A stretch of DNA of 32,000 nucleotides, taken from positions 1-32,000 of the forward strand of contig JADHTG010000031.1 of assembly GCA_016776505.1 (NCBI GenBank), written 5' to 3'. Origin of the DNA: Bacteroidota bacterium. GTDB lineage: Bacteria; Bacteroidota; Bacteroidia; CAILMK01; JAAYUY01. Under the pieces are notes generated by a model. The model was not told where the DNA came from. It saw only the letters and a program-made list of their open reading frames with translations, and ran no database searches. Shown piece by piece: positions 7,300 through 9,075 of this stretch (position 1 is the stretch's first letter; the number at the start of each line of letters is the position of its first letter). The position numbers were made by a program, and so were the translations under genes.

Positions 7300-7596
7300 T
7301 TAACAACAAGCTCCCGAATCCGGTCCGCCACAACAGGCTTCTGTATTGTTCAGCATACCACTTAAAATACCCGCAGCGCAACCCACACCCGACCTGACTT
7401 CTATGGCATCCTCGGGACAATTCAGGGCACAGGCACCACATTCCATGCAGTAATCCTTTCTGATAATTTTAGCCCTTCCTTTGCTGACTTCAAACACTTC
7501 ATGCGGACACACCTTCACACACATACGGCAACCATTGCATTTGTCTGCATCCAACTGAAGCGTGACAACATTTTTTAGATAAATCATTTCTCTCAT
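7300..7596 (-). CDS. hgcB: mercury methylation ferredoxin HgcB (2x[4Fe-4S])
   Basis: 98 aa with two CX2CX2CX3CP motifs (CNGCRMCVKVCP, CMECGACALNCP), an extra conserved Cys in GVGCAAG and a C-terminal vicinal-Cys tail (ACCGGPDSGACC). It starts 6 nt after the hgcA stop. Confidence 0.85.
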   Translation of the reverse strand: MREMIYLKNVVTLQLDADKCNGCRMCVKVCPHEVFEVSKGRAKIIRKDYCMECGACALNCPEDAIEVRSGVGCAAGILSGMLNNTEACCGGPDSGACC

Positions 7597-7602
7597 AACC
7601 TT

Positions 7603-8730
7603 CTAATTTATGAATTTCACTACAACAAAAAGAACCAGTCCAACACTGGTCAGAGAAATCTGAAAGGGGATCGCAATTTTCATTTCTATTTTTACTCCTG
7701 ACAAAGAGGTAAAGGTGGACGAACCTGTAAAATTCATAGCTGTGAAAGATGAAATTCCTGAAATAATTAATGACCAGGAAATCATTTCCAAATAGGTGTT
7801 CCCCAATTTATTGAAAAGAAGCAGCAAAGCAGAAGTGATGATGCCCATTAAAAATCCTTTTAAGGAAAAACTCCTGCCAGGGATGAAAGGAAGAAATATA
7901 GGTGTTAAAACAAGTCCTGAAACATATCCTGAGCCGATTATTAATATGGATAACAATCCTTTATCTATTGCATCGTGTAATGAAAACTCACCTTTATTAA
8001 TAGCCGAAAGGATAAAAAAGACAGCCATCACTGCAAGCAATTTGTATGAACCCATCACTAAATCCACAGGAATTAATTTGAGGCGGTCAACCAGATTGAA
8101 GCTTACTTTTCGCATTTCTTTCGTTGAGTGATGCTTCTTCCTGACAAATTCTTTGATATCTGATGCCTTAACCGGACCGTAAATCACTTTAAAACCAGGT
8201 TCAGGGTTCAAAGAAACAGGATCTGGAACAAAAGCAGCTGTGTTAGACAATGAAGGATTTGATAATATGGATTGTGCTGCTGCATTTGCAGTCAACTGTT
8301 CTACTTTGTGTGCAGAGATCCCGGTTGCTCCTAATTGAGGAACAATGATCTTCCTGTGATTAATAATCTCGCTTAGCCTGCTTAAACGAATCCTGTTGAC
8401 CAGTTCCGTGGTGCTGAATGTTCCTTTTCCTGCTGCACACCAGACGTTGATCCCCCTGGTATCTAAAACGAGTATCCAGGCATTCAATTCATCGAGATTT
8501 TTTCGAAGATGATCAAAAGATAGTTTATAATTCGCTGTAACAAATACATCTGAAGCTCCATCCGGATTCCCAACCGCATAAAGGCCGGGATTCACTTTGT
8601 AACTATTCCTGTAAAAAGCCAAACGAACCATCAAGGCACCGAACCGGTCTTTGAAATTCAATTTTGAATCTGCAACTGGAACTTCTCCGATAGAAGTTGG
8701 CAAATAAGCTGTGATATAAAATAACTTCAT
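7603..8730 (-). CDS. hgcA: mercury methylation corrinoid protein HgcA
   Basis: 375 aa. The N-terminal corrinoid-binding domain carries the diagnostic cap-helix motif GINVWCAAGKGTF (N95-K102, nt 8425-8448) preceded by PGLYAVGNP and TANYKLSFD. The C-terminal half has about 5 predicted TM helices, the standard HgcA architecture. Confidence 0.9.
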   Translation of the reverse strand: MKLFYITAYLPTSIGEVPVADSKLNFKDRFGALMVRLAFYRNSYKVNPGLYAVGNPDGASDVFVTANYKLSFDHLRKNLDELNAWILVLDTRGINVWCAAGKGTFSTTELVNRIRLSRLSEIINHRKIIVPQLGATGISAHKVEQLTANAAAQSILSNPSLSNTAAFVPDPVSLNPEPGFKVIYGPVKASDIKEFVRKKHHSTKEMRKVSFNLVDRLKLIPVDLVMGSYKLLAVMAVFFILSAINKGEFSLHDAIDKGLLSILIIGSGYVSGLVLTPIFLPFIPGRSFSLKGFLMGIITSALLLLFNKLGNTYLEMISWSLIISGISSFTAMNFTGSSTFTSLSGVKIEMKIAIPFQISLTSVGLVLFVVVKFIN

Positions 8731-8748
8731 CTGATGAAAATTTAAGAT

Positions 8749-9075
8749 TTAACAACAGCTTTCCTCACAACAGTTTGTTTTTTTCAGAAATTCATTGATC
8801 AGTTTATTCATGTTTGCCAATTCATTCATATTAAGACAATAATTGACCTTCACGCCATCAATTTCTCCCTGGATCAGTTTCATTTTTTTTAATTCCGTCA
8901 GGTGTTGGCTTACAGTGGTCCGGCTCAACGGTAGCTCGTTTGAAATATCATCGGTGATGCAGGACTTTTGCTCTCCAAGGAATCTCAATATCGCCAGGCG
9001 TGCCGGATGTCCCAGGGCTTTACAAAATGCCGAGATCTGTTGCAGGTCGGTATCAAATAAGTTATTCTTTGCCAT
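8749..9075 (-). CDS. ArsR/SmtB family metalloregulator with Cys-rich C-terminal tail
   Basis: 108 aa with a winged HTH (FCKALGHPARLAILRFL ... LSRTTVSQHLTELKK) and the C-terminal NCCEESCC (nt 8752-8775). It ends 18 nt upstream of the hgcA start, so co-transcription is likely. Confidence 0.85.
   Translation of the reverse strand: MAKNNLFDTDLQQISAFCKALGHPARLAILRFLGEQKSCITDDISNELPLSRTTVSQHLTELKKMKLIQGEIDGVKVNYCLNMNELANMNKLINEFLKKTNCCEESCC

What the first reader, a model, noticed from the sequence alone, without database searches (positions are those of the whole stretch)
7300..9075. Complete arsR-hgcA-hgcB mercury-methylation operon in a Bacteroidota-type backbone
Seen directly: the 375-aa protein carries the diagnostic HgcA cap-helix motif NVWCAAGK (nt 8425-8448) in a corrinoid-binding N-domain, plus a 5-TM C-domain. 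The next gene, 6 nt downstream, is a 98-aa 2x[4Fe-4S] ferredoxin with the extra internal Cys and a C-terminal vicinal-Cys tail, which together are the HgcB signature. An ArsR-family gene ends 18 nt upstream of hgcA. Established knowledge: hgcAB is necessary for microbial Hg methylation, is phylogenetically patchy, and often has an ArsR-like gene next to it (an ArsR-like regulator of hgcAB has been reported for Pseudodesulfovibrio mercurii ND132). This is a known system rather than a new one. A canonical, apparently intact copy in this lineage still matters environmentally and is the clearest accessory cargo in the window.
Basis: partly seen in the sequence, partly recalled or inferred. Interest (0 to 1): 0.7.

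Follow-up and report, generated by a model that had tools for sequence, protein, structure and literature searches.

The report
Mercury-methylation operon arsR-hgcA-hgcB in Bacteroidota
This is an intact three-gene operon for making toxic methylmercury, with its own metal-sensing repressor, in an uncultured Bacteroidota bacterium; the system is already well known, so it is a new, rather divergent member, not a new kind of thing.

Summary
On the minus strand lie arsR (9075..8749, 108 aa), hgcA (8730..7603, 375 aa) and hgcB (7596..7300, 98 aa), separated by 18 and 6 nt. NVWCAAGK sits at nt 8425-8448, and Cys98 is the only Cys in HgcA.

Both proteins pass NCBI's equivalog models: HgcA 403.6 bits (cut-off 275) and HgcB 120.1 bits (cut-off 99). 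They fail the non-methylating HgcAB-like fusion model. An AlphaFold model shows the cap helix and five C-terminal helices, and its best PDB match is the ND132 HgcAB model. HgcB carries Cys at 20/23/26/30/50/53/56/60/73, the numbering reported for ND132, plus four tail Cys.

HgcA nests in the Bacteroidota/Ignavibacteriota clade, and its nearest relative is only 59-60% identical. The identical proteins are already in NCBI, misnamed "acetyl-CoA synthase subunit gamma".

New here is a palindromic box, CGTA-N4-TRCG, present twice upstream of arsR. One copy overlaps the only Bacteroidota-type -7 promoter box. The box recurs upstream of hgcAB-linked arsR genes in relatives and co-varies with the ArsR recognition helix, so it is probably the operator.

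The "accessory cargo" claim is only partly supported.

Verdict: a known system and a new member. Methylation activity is untested.

The parts
8749..9075 (-). arsR: a 108-aa ArsR/SmtB-family winged-helix regulator and first gene of the operon. Cys at 18, 39, 80, 102, 103, 107, 108.
   Evidence: ORF. NCBIfam NF033788 HTH_metalloreg 62.9 bits (cut-off 55). Pfam HTH_5 35.9 bits (cut-off 22), aa 23-68. Cys positions. PDB relatives are PagR, YgaV, CzrA and SmtB.
8752..8772 (-). Cys-rich C-terminal tail of ArsR (aa 102-108, CCEESCC), the candidate thiophilic metal(loid) sensing site.
   Evidence: Sequence. Nearly all type-A Bacteroidales homologues end with at least one Cys; this one has four. The sensing function is inferred.
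7603..8730 (-). hgcA: a 375-aa corrinoid protein for mercury methylation.
   Evidence: NCBIfam equivalog NF040863 403.6 bits (cut-off 275). AF2 model pLDDT 84.4. Best PDB-library match is 9a0b_A, the ND132 HgcAB model, E 1.4e-18, 37% identity.
8290..8682 (-). [quoted passage not shown]
   Evidence: NF040863 best stretch aa 17-147. Pfam CdhD aa 41-136. phmmer to CFeSP 2h9a_A, E 1e-8, aa 34-147.
8425..8448 (-). Cap-helix motif NVWCAAGK (aa 95-102). Cys98 is the predicted lower axial ligand of cobalt.
   Evidence: Coordinates. N95, W97, C98, A100, G101 and K102 are invariant in 49 homologues. Helix 96-102 in the AF2 model. Aligns with Thr in CFeSP.
8167..8289 (-). Variable linker of HgcA (about aa 148-188), predicted disordered. 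It makes this protein about 30-50 aa longer than many orthologues.
   Evidence: pLDDT below 50 at aa 152-173. The NF040863 match is split into two stretches. Homologue lengths range from 343 to 398 aa.
7609..8094 (-). HgcA transmembrane domain: five helices (aa 213-241, 251-278, 288-305, 313-338, 344-374).
   Evidence: AF2 secondary structure. Hydropathy peaks.
7300..7596 (-). hgcB: a 98-aa 2x[4Fe-4S] ferredoxin for mercury methylation.
   Evidence: NCBIfam equivalog NF040864 120.1 bits (cut-off 99). Pfam Fer4 families.
7417..7539 (-). The two CxxCxxCxxxCP cluster-binding motifs of HgcB (Cys20-30 and Cys50-60).
   Evidence: Cys positions. They match the numbering given for ND132 HgcB in PMC7305189.
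7378..7380 (-). HgcB Cys73, the strictly conserved extra cysteine.
   Evidence: Its essentiality in ND132 is cited in PMC7305189.
7303..7335 (-). HgcB C-terminal tail with two vicinal Cys pairs (Cys88/89 and Cys97/98).
   Evidence: The literature reports up to four C-terminal Cys.
9105..9124 (-). Proximal operator-like box O1 (GTGTCGTATATTTGCGTCAT, core CGTATATTTGCG at 9109-9120). It contains the Bacteroidota -7 promoter box TATATTTG (9118..9111), 35 nt upstream of the arsR ATG.
   Evidence: The pattern CGTANNNNTRCG gives only 3 strand-hits in 32 kb, all here, against 0.15 expected. This is the only TAnnTTTG on the minus strand in 7250-9400. The box is conserved upstream of arsR in 21 of 36 related loci and co-varies with the ArsR recognition helix.
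9133..9152 (-). Distal operator-like box O2 (ATGACGTATTTATACGTTGT, core at 9137-9148), 28 nt upstream of O1.
   Evidence: The same two-box arrangement, 26-29 nt apart, occurs in L004, L005, L014, L017, L018 and L046.
7029..7299 (.). Intergenic region downstream of hgcB, carrying copies of genome-specific short repeats. These include an element of about 90 nt with terminal inverted repeats at 7031-7119.
   Evidence: This is context only; no role in the operon is shown.
9153..9379 (.). Intergenic region upstream of the operator, carrying copies of the same repeats in direct orientation to those at 7029-7299.
   Evidence: Context only.

Best explanation
The region is a single transcription unit, arsR-hgcA-hgcB, in an uncultured Bacteroidota genome related to Prolixibacteraceae and Marinilabiliales.

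Enzyme. HgcA is a membrane-anchored corrinoid protein. Its cap-helix Cys98 is predicted to ligate cobalt ("Cys-on") and to favour transfer of the cobalt-bound methyl group to Hg(II). HgcB is a two-cluster ferredoxin that re-reduces the corrinoid to Co(I). Its Cys73 and C-terminal Cys pairs are thought to hand Hg(II) in and methylmercury out. If expressed in a cell supplied with corrinoid, the pair should make methylmercury. This mechanism is taken from work on Pseudodesulfovibrio mercurii ND132; only the sequence determinants are shown here.

Regulation (inferred). A single Bacteroidota-type promoter, with -7 box TATATTTG, lies 35 nt upstream of arsR. It sits inside a palindromic box, and a second box lies 28 bp further upstream. 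The ArsR dimer probably binds these boxes, represses its own operon, and is released when a thiophilic metal(loid) binds its cysteines (Cys39, Cys80 and the CCEESCC tail). By analogy with ND132 ArsR2 the signal could be As(III); Hg(II) is also possible.
For: Gene structure and motifs.

Family assignment: the equivalog HMMs for HgcA and HgcB pass, and the HgcAB-like fusion model fails.

Corrinoid domain: it is homologous to CFeSP, with Cys98 opposite Thr.

Structure: the AF2 model has the cap helix and five TM helices. Its top structural match is the ND132 HgcAB model 9a0b_A (E 1.4e-18), followed by CFeSP structures.

Conservation: the cap-helix residues are invariant in 49 homologues. The HgcB Cys numbering is identical to ND132.

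Phylogeny: placement inside the Bacteroidota/Ignavibacteriota clade.

Operon:
- The gaps are 18 and 6 nt.
- There is only one -7 box on that strand.
- No canonical intrinsic terminator lies between the genes; the one terminator-like hit on that strand is inside the hgcA coding sequence, and the number found is no more than in shuffled sequence.

Operator:
- The box occurs only upstream of arsR in the window, against 0.15 expected.
- 40 of 75 strand-hits in 1.24 Mb of related loci lie at arsR or hgcA starts.
- The box flanks co-vary with the ArsR recognition helix.
- In L017 the double box sits directly upstream of hgcA.

Literature: ArsR2 regulates hgcAB and responds to As in ND132. Bacteroidetes hgcA is transcribed in permafrost fens.
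Against: - No Bacteroidota hgcAB has been shown here to methylate Hg, and I did not find such a test in the papers read.
- Activity depends on corrinoid supply, Hg uptake and expression, none of which can be read from this window.
- The ArsR lacks the canonical alpha-3 CxC arsenite site (it has C39-I-T) and the full four-Cys site described for ND132 ArsR2, so the effector is unknown.
- No -33 TTTG at the usual spacing was found.
- Binding of ArsR to the box rests on comparative evidence only.
- All 80 related loci were retrieved partly through the NVWCAAGK pattern, so the 80/80 motif count is biased.
Confidence: 0.8

Rival explanations
1. The genes are true hgcAB orthologues, but their physiological role in this organism is not Hg methylation. 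They may serve another corrinoid-dependent reaction, such as reductive dehalogenation of halomethanes, or a function tied to arsenic or thiophilic-metalloid stress. Hg methylation would then be a side reaction.
For: - In many Bacteroidales relatives hgcAB is the last cargo of arsR-headed operons with arsC, an arsC-arsM fusion, Cys-rich small proteins, CcdA-like proteins and permeases.
- ND132 hgcAB responds to As.
- A 2026 preprint reports CCl4 dechlorination by heterologously expressed HgcAB.
Against: This rival is not exclusive of the main explanation. In this window no ars gene other than arsR accompanies hgcAB. The dehalogenation claim is a single preprint on ND132 proteins.
Confidence: 0.3
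2. The protein is a non-methylating paralogue, meaning a CFeSP gamma subunit (as NCBI names it) or a member of the HgcAB-like fusion family.
For: NCBI records name it "acetyl-CoA synthase subunit gamma". Pfam sees only CdhD.
Against: - The CFeSP/ACDS gamma model scores 62 bits against a cut-off of 306, and the HgcAB_like fusion model 181 against 285, while HgcA scores 404 against 275.
- The protein has a five-helix membrane domain that CFeSP lacks.
- Cys98 replaces the Thr of CFeSP.
- A separate hgcB follows.
- No acs/cdh genes are in the window.
Confidence: 0.02
3. The operon is recently acquired mobile cargo: a cassette bracketed by direct repeats and inserted into a Bacteroidota backbone.
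For: - The operon is flanked by direct copies of short repeats about 2.13 kb apart.
- The sister lineages keep gatD-gatE-rSAM-ligase but lack arsR-hgcAB after the ligase.
- None of the 80 hgcA loci shares the neighbouring genes.
- The ArsR is of a different subtype from that of the closest HgcA relative, L001.
Against: - GC content of the operon (0.36-0.43) matches the flanks.
- No integrase, transposase or tRNA was seen in the neighbouring genes that were annotated.
- A third copy of the same repeat lies one intergenic region further on, at 5813, so the repeats are dispersed elements and not cassette ends.
- HgcA groups with the Marinilabiliales-type Bacteroidota, as does the flanking ligase.
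- The genes beyond the operon are also non-syntenic, so the site is a rearrangement breakpoint and not a clean insertion.
Confidence: 0.2
4. The contig is mis-binned and is not from Bacteroidota.
For: One related locus, L009, is labelled Alphaproteobacteria although its HgcA and ArsR are of Bacteroidales type. Mis-binning therefore does occur in this gene family.
Against: - A T9SS Por_Secre_tail sorting domain is present on the neighbouring hydrolase.
- The promoter box is of Bacteroidota type.
- The flanking ligase's best named relatives are Bacteroidota, Cytophagia and Prolixibacter.
- The same arrangement was assembled independently in at least six samples.
Confidence: 0.02

Closest known systems
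HgcA/HgcB of Pseudodesulfovibrio mercurii (Desulfovibrio desulfuricans) ND132, the genetically proven mercury methylase
   Same: - The two-gene order hgcA-hgcB.
- The cap-helix motif with Cys (Cys93 in ND132, Cys98 here).
- A CFeSP-like corrinoid domain plus a five-helix membrane domain.
- HgcB Cys at 20/23/26/30/50/53/56/60/73 with identical numbering, plus C-terminal Cys.
- An ArsR-like gene directly upstream.

   Different: - Only about 37% identity to ND132 HgcA over the Foldseek alignment.
- A longer disordered linker.
- Four instead of two C-terminal Cys in HgcB.
- A Bacteroidota host with a different promoter type.
- Activity not tested.
hgcAB of Bacteroidota/Ignavibacteriota MAGs and isolates (Paludibacteraceae, Marinilabiliaceae, vadinHA17), described by McDaniel et al. 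2020 (PMC7438021)
   Same: The window's HgcA falls in this clade. ArsR-like genes lie upstream on the same strand in many members.
   Different: - The nearest member is 59-60% identical, so this is a separate lineage.
- Here arsR abuts hgcA, whereas many relatives have arsC, arsC-arsM, Cys-rich and CcdA-like genes in between.
ArsR2 (DND132_1054), the ArsR-like regulator of hgcAB in ND132 (bioRxiv 10.1101/2022.10.17.512643; AEM 2023)
   Same: - The same family, and the same position directly upstream of hgcA on the same strand.
- Cys18, Cys39 and Cys80 here match ND132 Cys26, Cys47 and Cys88 at a constant offset of 8. This is inferred from the numbers in the paper and was not aligned.
   Different: - It lacks the second Cys of each CxC pair (ND132 Cys49 and Cys86) and instead has a CCEESCC tail.
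- The paper reports no operator; the CGTA-N4-TRCG box is proposed here.
Corrinoid iron-sulfur protein large subunit (CFeSP gamma / AcsC) of the Wood-Ljungdahl pathway
   Same: A homologous corrinoid-binding domain (E 1e-8 to 2h9a; Foldseek 2ycl E 1e-6).
   Different: - No N-terminal [4Fe-4S] domain.
- A membrane domain is present.
- Cys instead of Thr in the cap helix.
- Scores far below the family cut-off.

Membership tests
HgcA (mercury methylation corrinoid protein) | Scores above the curated cut-off of the equivalog model NF040863 | tested here: met
   403.6 bits against a cut-off of 275, E 5.7e-121
HgcA (mercury methylation corrinoid protein) | Cap-helix motif N(V/I)WCA(A/G)GK with the strictly conserved Cys | tested here: met
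   NVWCAAGK at aa 95-102, Cys98. The residues are invariant in 49 homologues. A helix spans 96-102 in the AF2 model.
HgcA (mercury methylation corrinoid protein) | [quoted passage not shown] | tested here: met
   Pfam CdhD 42.2 bits. CFeSP 2h9a E 1e-8 over aa 34-147. Foldseek matches to 2ycl, 4c1n and 4djd.
HgcA (mercury methylation corrinoid protein) | C-terminal transmembrane domain of five helices | tested here: met
   AF2 helices at 213-241, 251-278, 288-305, 313-338 and 344-374. Hydropathy shows four strong peaks plus one weaker segment.
HgcA (mercury methylation corrinoid protein) | Corrinoid-contacting residues of ND132 (Thr60, Thr66, Val91) conserved | tested here: inconclusive
   With the +5 offset set by Cys93/Cys98, the window has Thr65, Ser71 and Val96 (sequence; ND132 residues). 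No residue-level alignment to ND132 was available.
HgcA (mercury methylation corrinoid protein) | Is not the HgcAB-like fusion paralogue or CFeSP itself | tested here: met
   HgcAB_like 180.8 bits against a cut-off of 285. ACDS gamma 62.4 bits against 306. hgcB is a separate gene.
HgcA (mercury methylation corrinoid protein) | Placement with HgcA of recognised hgcAB-carrying lineages in a phylogeny | tested here: met
   In a neighbour-joining tree of 80 sequences it falls inside the Bacteroidota/Ignavibacteriota clade, sister to L001. The tree has no support values and no outgroup.
HgcA (mercury methylation corrinoid protein) | Produces methylmercury from Hg(II) in vivo | not testable with these tools
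   Needs an isotope-labelled Hg assay.
HgcB (mercury methylation ferredoxin) | Scores above the curated cut-off of the equivalog model NF040864 | tested here: met
   120.1 bits against a cut-off of 99, covering profile positions 2-93 of 93
HgcB (mercury methylation ferredoxin) | Two CxxCxxCxxxCP [4Fe-4S] motifs | tested here: met
   CNGCRMCVKVCP (Cys20-30) and CMECGACALNCP (Cys50-60)
HgcB (mercury methylation ferredoxin) | Conserved extra Cys about 12 residues after the second motif (Cys73 in ND132) | tested here: met
   Cys73, defined as in PMC7305189
HgcB (mercury methylation ferredoxin) | At least one Cys in the C-terminal tail | tested here: met
   Cys88, 89, 97 and 98
HgcB (mercury methylation ferredoxin) | Encoded immediately downstream of hgcA | tested here: met
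   6-nt gap on the same strand
ArsR/SmtB metalloregulators | Winged helix-turn-helix of the ArsR family, above model cut-offs | tested here: met
   NF033788 62.9 bits against 55. Pfam HTH_5 35.9 bits against 22.
ArsR/SmtB metalloregulators | Canonical alpha-3 arsenite site (CxCxxC, as in R773 ArsR) | tested here: not met
   The alpha-3 region reads KSC39-I-T-D-D, with a single Cys
ArsR2-type regulator of hgcAB (ND132) | Four-Cys site (Cys47, 49, 86, 88) plus Cys26 | tested here: not met
   Only three positions match at offset 8 (Cys18, 39, 80). Thr41 and Asn78 replace the other two, and the C-terminal CCEESCC tail is additional.
ArsR2-type regulator of hgcAB (ND132) | Located directly upstream of hgcAB and co-transcribed with it | tested here: inconclusive
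   The position is met (18-nt gap). There is a single -7 box on the strand. Co-transcription itself needs RNA data.
ArsR/SmtB metalloregulators | Palindromic operator overlapping its own promoter | tested here: met
   Two CGTA-N4-TRCG boxes at 9109-9120 and 9137-9148, the first overlapping TATATTTG. The box is conserved and co-varies with the recognition helix in relatives. Binding itself is not shown.

The most novel reading that the evidence does not exclude
In Bacteroidota, hgcAB may belong to a thiophilic-metal(loid) regulon. The regulon would be defined by a conserved palindromic ArsR operator (CGTA-N4-TRCG) built into the -7 promoter box.

In this lineage the ancestral ars-type operon (arsR, arsC/arsM, Cys-rich protein, CcdA-like protein, hgcAB) would have been pared down to arsR-hgcAB. 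Its ArsR has an expanded CCxxxCC tail that could sense Hg(II) itself.

Mercury methylation here would then be metal-inducible, not constitutive. The operator would give a sequence handle for predicting which environmental hgcAB genes are switched on.
Probability: 0.15. Interest if true: 0.6.

Novelty: new member of a known kind. Interest (0 to 1): 0.3.

Why it matters
hgcAB is the only known genetic marker of microbial methylmercury production. Bacteroidota can be among the most transcriptionally active hgcA carriers in some anoxic habitats (PMC7438021), yet in the papers read I found no report of a Bacteroidota methylator being tested in culture.

This copy adds a lineage only 59-60% identical to its nearest known HgcA. 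It also shows that NCBI records still name such proteins "acetyl-CoA synthase subunit gamma", so name-based surveys miss them.

The practical gain from this re-analysis is the candidate ArsR operator overlapping the promoter. It makes regulation of hgcAB in Bacteroidota testable by gel shift, reporter fusion or metatranscriptomics. It also links the gene pair to arsenic-type operons in relatives. None of this changes what is known about the system itself.

Tried and rejected
1. Intergenic length difference. A 155-nt difference upstream of arsR between L081 and the window looked like a repeat-element polymorphism. It is a run of N with duplicated flanks, a scaffolding artefact.

2. RNA families. 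Rfam at gathering threshold found nothing in the whole window.

3. Sigma-70 promoters and intrinsic terminators. The scan found no more sites than in shuffled sequence, as expected for Bacteroidota.

4. Shared neighbours. A search for the window's neighbour genes in the 80 hgcA loci found none shared.

5. Mre11-like neighbour. A metagenome scan with this protein found relatives at 71-79% identity whose flanks differ on both sides. They are uninformative about insertion.

6. Composition. The GC and skew profile shows no anomaly over the operon.

7. -33 element. A TTTG lies only 11 nt from the -7 box, not at the usual spacing, so I do not claim one.

8. Flanking repeats as cassette ends. I rejected this because a third copy lies in the next intergenic region, at 5813, and the repeat modules occur in a different order on the two sides.

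9. Solved structures by sequence. No HgcA or HgcB entry was found this way. The ND132 integrative model appeared only in the fold search.

10. Motif count. The 80/80 count of NVWCAAGK in related loci is not independent evidence, because that peptide was one of the search patterns.
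Full report
OBSERVATION

The minus strand between 7300 and 9075 holds three tightly packed ORFs:
- arsR, 9075..8749, 108 aa;
- hgcA, 8730..7603, 375 aa;
- hgcB, 7596..7300, 98 aa.

The gaps are 18 and 6 nt. Cys98 is the only cysteine in HgcA. HgcB has Cys at 20, 23, 26, 30, 50, 53, 56, 60, 73, 88, 89, 97 and 98. 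ArsR has Cys at 18, 39, 80, 102, 103, 107 and 108.

WHAT THE PROTEINS ARE

HgcA. Against NCBIfam it scores 403.6 bits on the HgcA equivalog model NF040863 (cut-off 275). It scores 180.8 on the HgcAB-like fusion family (cut-off 285) and 62.4 on the acetyl-CoA decarbonylase/synthase gamma subunit (cut-off 306). Pfam sees only the CdhD domain over aa 41-136.

HgcB. It scores 120.1 bits on NF040864 (cut-off 99), end to end.

ArsR. It passes the ArsR/SmtB metalloregulator model, 62.9 bits against 55.

Solved structures. By sequence, the only relatives of HgcA are CFeSP large subunits (2h9a, E 1e-8), matching aa 34-147 only. In that alignment HgcA's GINVWCAAGKGTF lies opposite GTSVLTAWAAGKF, so Cys98 faces a Thr. 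This is the difference the literature describes (PMC7305189).

Structure model. An AlphaFold2 model built on 49 homologues has pLDDT 84.4 and pTM 0.75. It shows a helix at 96-102, a disordered linker at 152-173, and five long C-terminal helices at 213-241, 251-278, 288-305, 313-338 and 344-374. Its best match in the PDB library is 9a0b_A, the deposited integrative model of the ND132 HgcAB complex (E 1.4e-18, 37% identity over 357 columns). CFeSP structures follow.

Comparison with ND132. The HgcB cysteines have the same numbering that PMC7305189 gives for ND132: clusters at 20/23/26/60 and 50/53/56/30, the essential Cys73, and "up to four" tail cysteines.

WHERE IT COMES FROM

The three proteins are already in public databases with identical sequences. 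HgcA is MBC8343230.1 / MBL6963655.1, named "acetyl-CoA synthase subunit gamma [Bacteroidetes bacterium]". HgcB is "4Fe-4S binding protein". ArsR is "winged helix-turn-helix transcriptional regulator". The same gene order was assembled in at least six independent samples.

The next closest HgcA is only 59-60% identical. A neighbour-joining tree of the window plus 79 HgcA sequences from species-representative genomes puts it inside the Bacteroidota/Ignavibacteriota clade. It is sister to a Bacteroidota MAG (L001) and next to Marinilabilia, Salinivirgaceae and Prolixibacteraceae sequences.

The host assignment is consistent with three further points:
- the neighbouring hydrolase carries a T9SS sorting domain;
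- the flanking acyl-CoA ligase has Bacteroidota and Prolixibacter relatives;
- the promoter box is of the Bacteroidota type.

Bacteroidetes hgcAB is well documented. The clade is monophyletic with Ignavibacteria, and it gave the highest hgcA transcription in permafrost fen samples (PMC7438021).

REGULATION: THE ADDED RESULT

On the minus strand between 7250 and 9400 there is one match to the Bacteroidota -7 consensus TAnnTTTG. It is TATATTTG at 9118..9111, 35 nt upstream of the arsR ATG. It lies inside a 12-bp palindromic box, CGTATATTTGCG (9109-9120). A second box, CGTATTTATACG (9137-9148), lies 28 bp upstream.

In the window. The pattern CGTA-N4-TRCG occurs nowhere else in the 32 kb. There are 3 strand-hits against 0.15 expected, and none of 100 shuffles reached 3.

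In related loci. In 1.24 Mb of related hgcA loci the pattern gives 75 strand-hits. Forty of them lie within 150 nt upstream to 90 nt downstream of an arsR start, or just upstream of hgcA. Twenty-one of the 36 loci with an arsR-like gene have an exact match. Several apparent N-terminal extensions ("MSYVC...") in ORF calls are in fact this box translated. A two-box arrangement 26-29 bp apart recurs in L004, L005, L014, L017, L018 and L046. In L017 it sits directly upstream of hgcA, with no arsR between.

Co-variation with the regulator:
- ArsR proteins with recognition helix L(S/G)RTTV.QHL and alpha-3 C(I/M)(T/S)GD, including the window's, go with ATGNCGTAT.TTTGCGNCAT.
- Those with IA(K/Q)(A/S)T(V/L)SQHL go with TTGTTCGTAATTTTGCGAACAA.

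Co-variation between a DNA-reading helix and the flanks of a palindrome is what an operator-repressor pair would show. I therefore read O1 and O2 as the ArsR operator, placed so that the bound repressor occludes the -7 box. This is an inference, because binding was not tested. The ND132 paper does not mention an operator, palindrome or promoter.

WHAT ArsR MIGHT SENSE

The window's ArsR lacks the canonical alpha-3 CxC. It keeps Cys39 (alpha-3) and Cys80 (the conserved "YC"), and it ends in CCEESCC. Nearly all type-A homologues end with a single Cys.

Using the numbers in the ND132 paper (Cys26, 47, 49, 86, 88), Cys18, 39 and 80 match at an offset of 8. The other two positions do not match. The effector is therefore unknown. 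As(III) is the precedent from ND132, where hgcAB expression rose with As. A thiolate-rich tail would also suit Hg(II).

In many Bacteroidales relatives the arsR-like gene heads an operon that ends in hgcAB. The intervening genes include arsC, an arsC-arsM fusion, a small Cys-rich membrane protein, a CcdA-like protein and permeases. This extends the arsenic link noted by McDaniel et al.. In the window the operon is reduced to arsR-hgcAB.

IS IT ACCESSORY CARGO?

The claim is partly supported.

For:
- Two sister lineages, whose acyl-CoA ligase is 77% and 70% identical, keep the block gatD-gatE-radical SAM-ligase. After the ligase they have GTP cyclohydrolase I or a xanthine permease, not arsR-hgcAB.
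- None of the 80 hgcA loci shares the window's neighbours.

Against:
- GC content is unremarkable.
- No mobility genes are present among the annotated neighbours.
- The genes beyond the operon are also non-syntenic.
- The direct repeats on either side belong to a dispersed family specific to this genome, with a third copy at 5813.
- The HgcA tree agrees with the host's order-level affiliation.

The best description is a lineage-specific gene set at a rearrangement-prone junction. It is not a demonstrable mobile cassette.

MECHANISM, AND WHAT IS SHOWN VERSUS INFERRED

Shown here: gene structure, family membership by curated models, all sequence determinants known to be required in ND132, the predicted fold, clade placement, and a conserved promoter-embedded palindrome.

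Taken from the literature:
- Cys-on corrinoid chemistry;
- HgcB as reductant and Hg/MeHg shuttle;
- the essential roles of Cys93 in HgcA, Cys73 in HgcB, and at least one C-terminal Cys of HgcB;
- regulation by ArsR2 and its response to As.

Inferred: that this copy is expressed, receives corrinoid and methylates Hg; that the three genes form one transcript; and that ArsR binds O1/O2 and is released by a thiophilic ion.

VERDICT

This is a real, intact arsR-hgcA-hgcB operon: a known system and a new, fairly divergent member in Bacteroidota. The candidate operator and the misannotation are the useful by-products.

Noticed in passing
window 12197-14215 (+) and 14221-15615 (+): These two genes match the archaeal-type Glu-tRNA(Gln) amidotransferase subunits at equivalog level: GatE (NF003107, 473.6 bits, cut-off 456) and GatD (NF003217, 499.8 bits, cut-off 310). 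From my own knowledge, GatDE is regarded as an archaeal system. Here it sits in a Bacteroidota contig, and the gatD-gatE-radical SAM-ligase block is conserved in two sister lineages (L091-L093).
   Followed up: partly
window 5811-5906, 7031-7119, 9158-9190; also 7141-7195 / 9281-9335 and 7243-7275 / 9211-9243: A family of short intergenic repeats is found in three successive intergenic regions. Its core is GTAGGRCCGAATTSCRTTCGG. The elements of about 90 nt have terminal inverted repeats and fold into two hairpins closed by an outer stem (z -2.3 to -4.0), so they look MITE- or REP-like. Among the 90 loci held, the core occurs only in contigs of this same organism.
   Followed up: partly
window 7603-8730 and 7300-7596 (public records MBC8343230.1, MBL6963655.1, MBC8343231.1): The identical proteins are deposited in NCBI as "acetyl-CoA synthase subunit gamma" and "4Fe-4S binding protein". 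Many close homologues are "hypothetical protein", and one is "membrane protein YphA (DoxX/SURF4)". Name-based surveys would miss these hgcAB genes.
   Followed up: yes
L014 7731-8963, L018 7711-8946, L032 471-1865; also L014 8983-9985, L044 8938-9938, L026 8984-10000: In several Bacteroidales loci three genes lie between arsR and hgcA. One is an ArsC (LMW-PTP type) fused to an ArsM-like methyltransferase, about 410 aa. The second is a small membrane protein of about 97 aa, rich in Cys (CGCEGDCCPPKK...SSCCPK). The third is a CcdA/DsbD-like membrane protein of about 233 aa. These look like a recurring thiol/metalloid-handling module attached to hgcAB.
   Followed up: partly
L009 (SACF01000039.1, labelled Alphaproteobacteria): The HgcA, the ArsR and the operator box of this contig are all of the Bacteroidales type. 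The contig is probably mis-binned.
   Followed up: no
L033 9194-9985: The ArsR-like gene 15 nt upstream of hgcA is 264 aa long, with a C-terminal extension of roughly 150 aa after the winged-helix domain. From its sequence the extension looks like a GNAT acetyltransferase, but this was not scanned against any library.
   Followed up: no
L032 1-147: The region upstream of arsR at this contig end is a long tandem array of the heptamer CTGAAAT. The start of the next ORF downstream encodes a repetitive HYHIITLS peptide. This could be an assembly artefact or a microsatellite.
   Followed up: no
window 20248-22137 (+): Three consecutive ORFs of 180, 235 and 213 aa have no Pfam match at E 1e-5 or better.
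   Followed up: no
L081 9393-9568: This ENA contig has a run of N flanked by a duplicated 48-nt stretch in the arsR upstream region. It is a scaffolding artefact that mimics an insertion polymorphism.
   Followed up: yes
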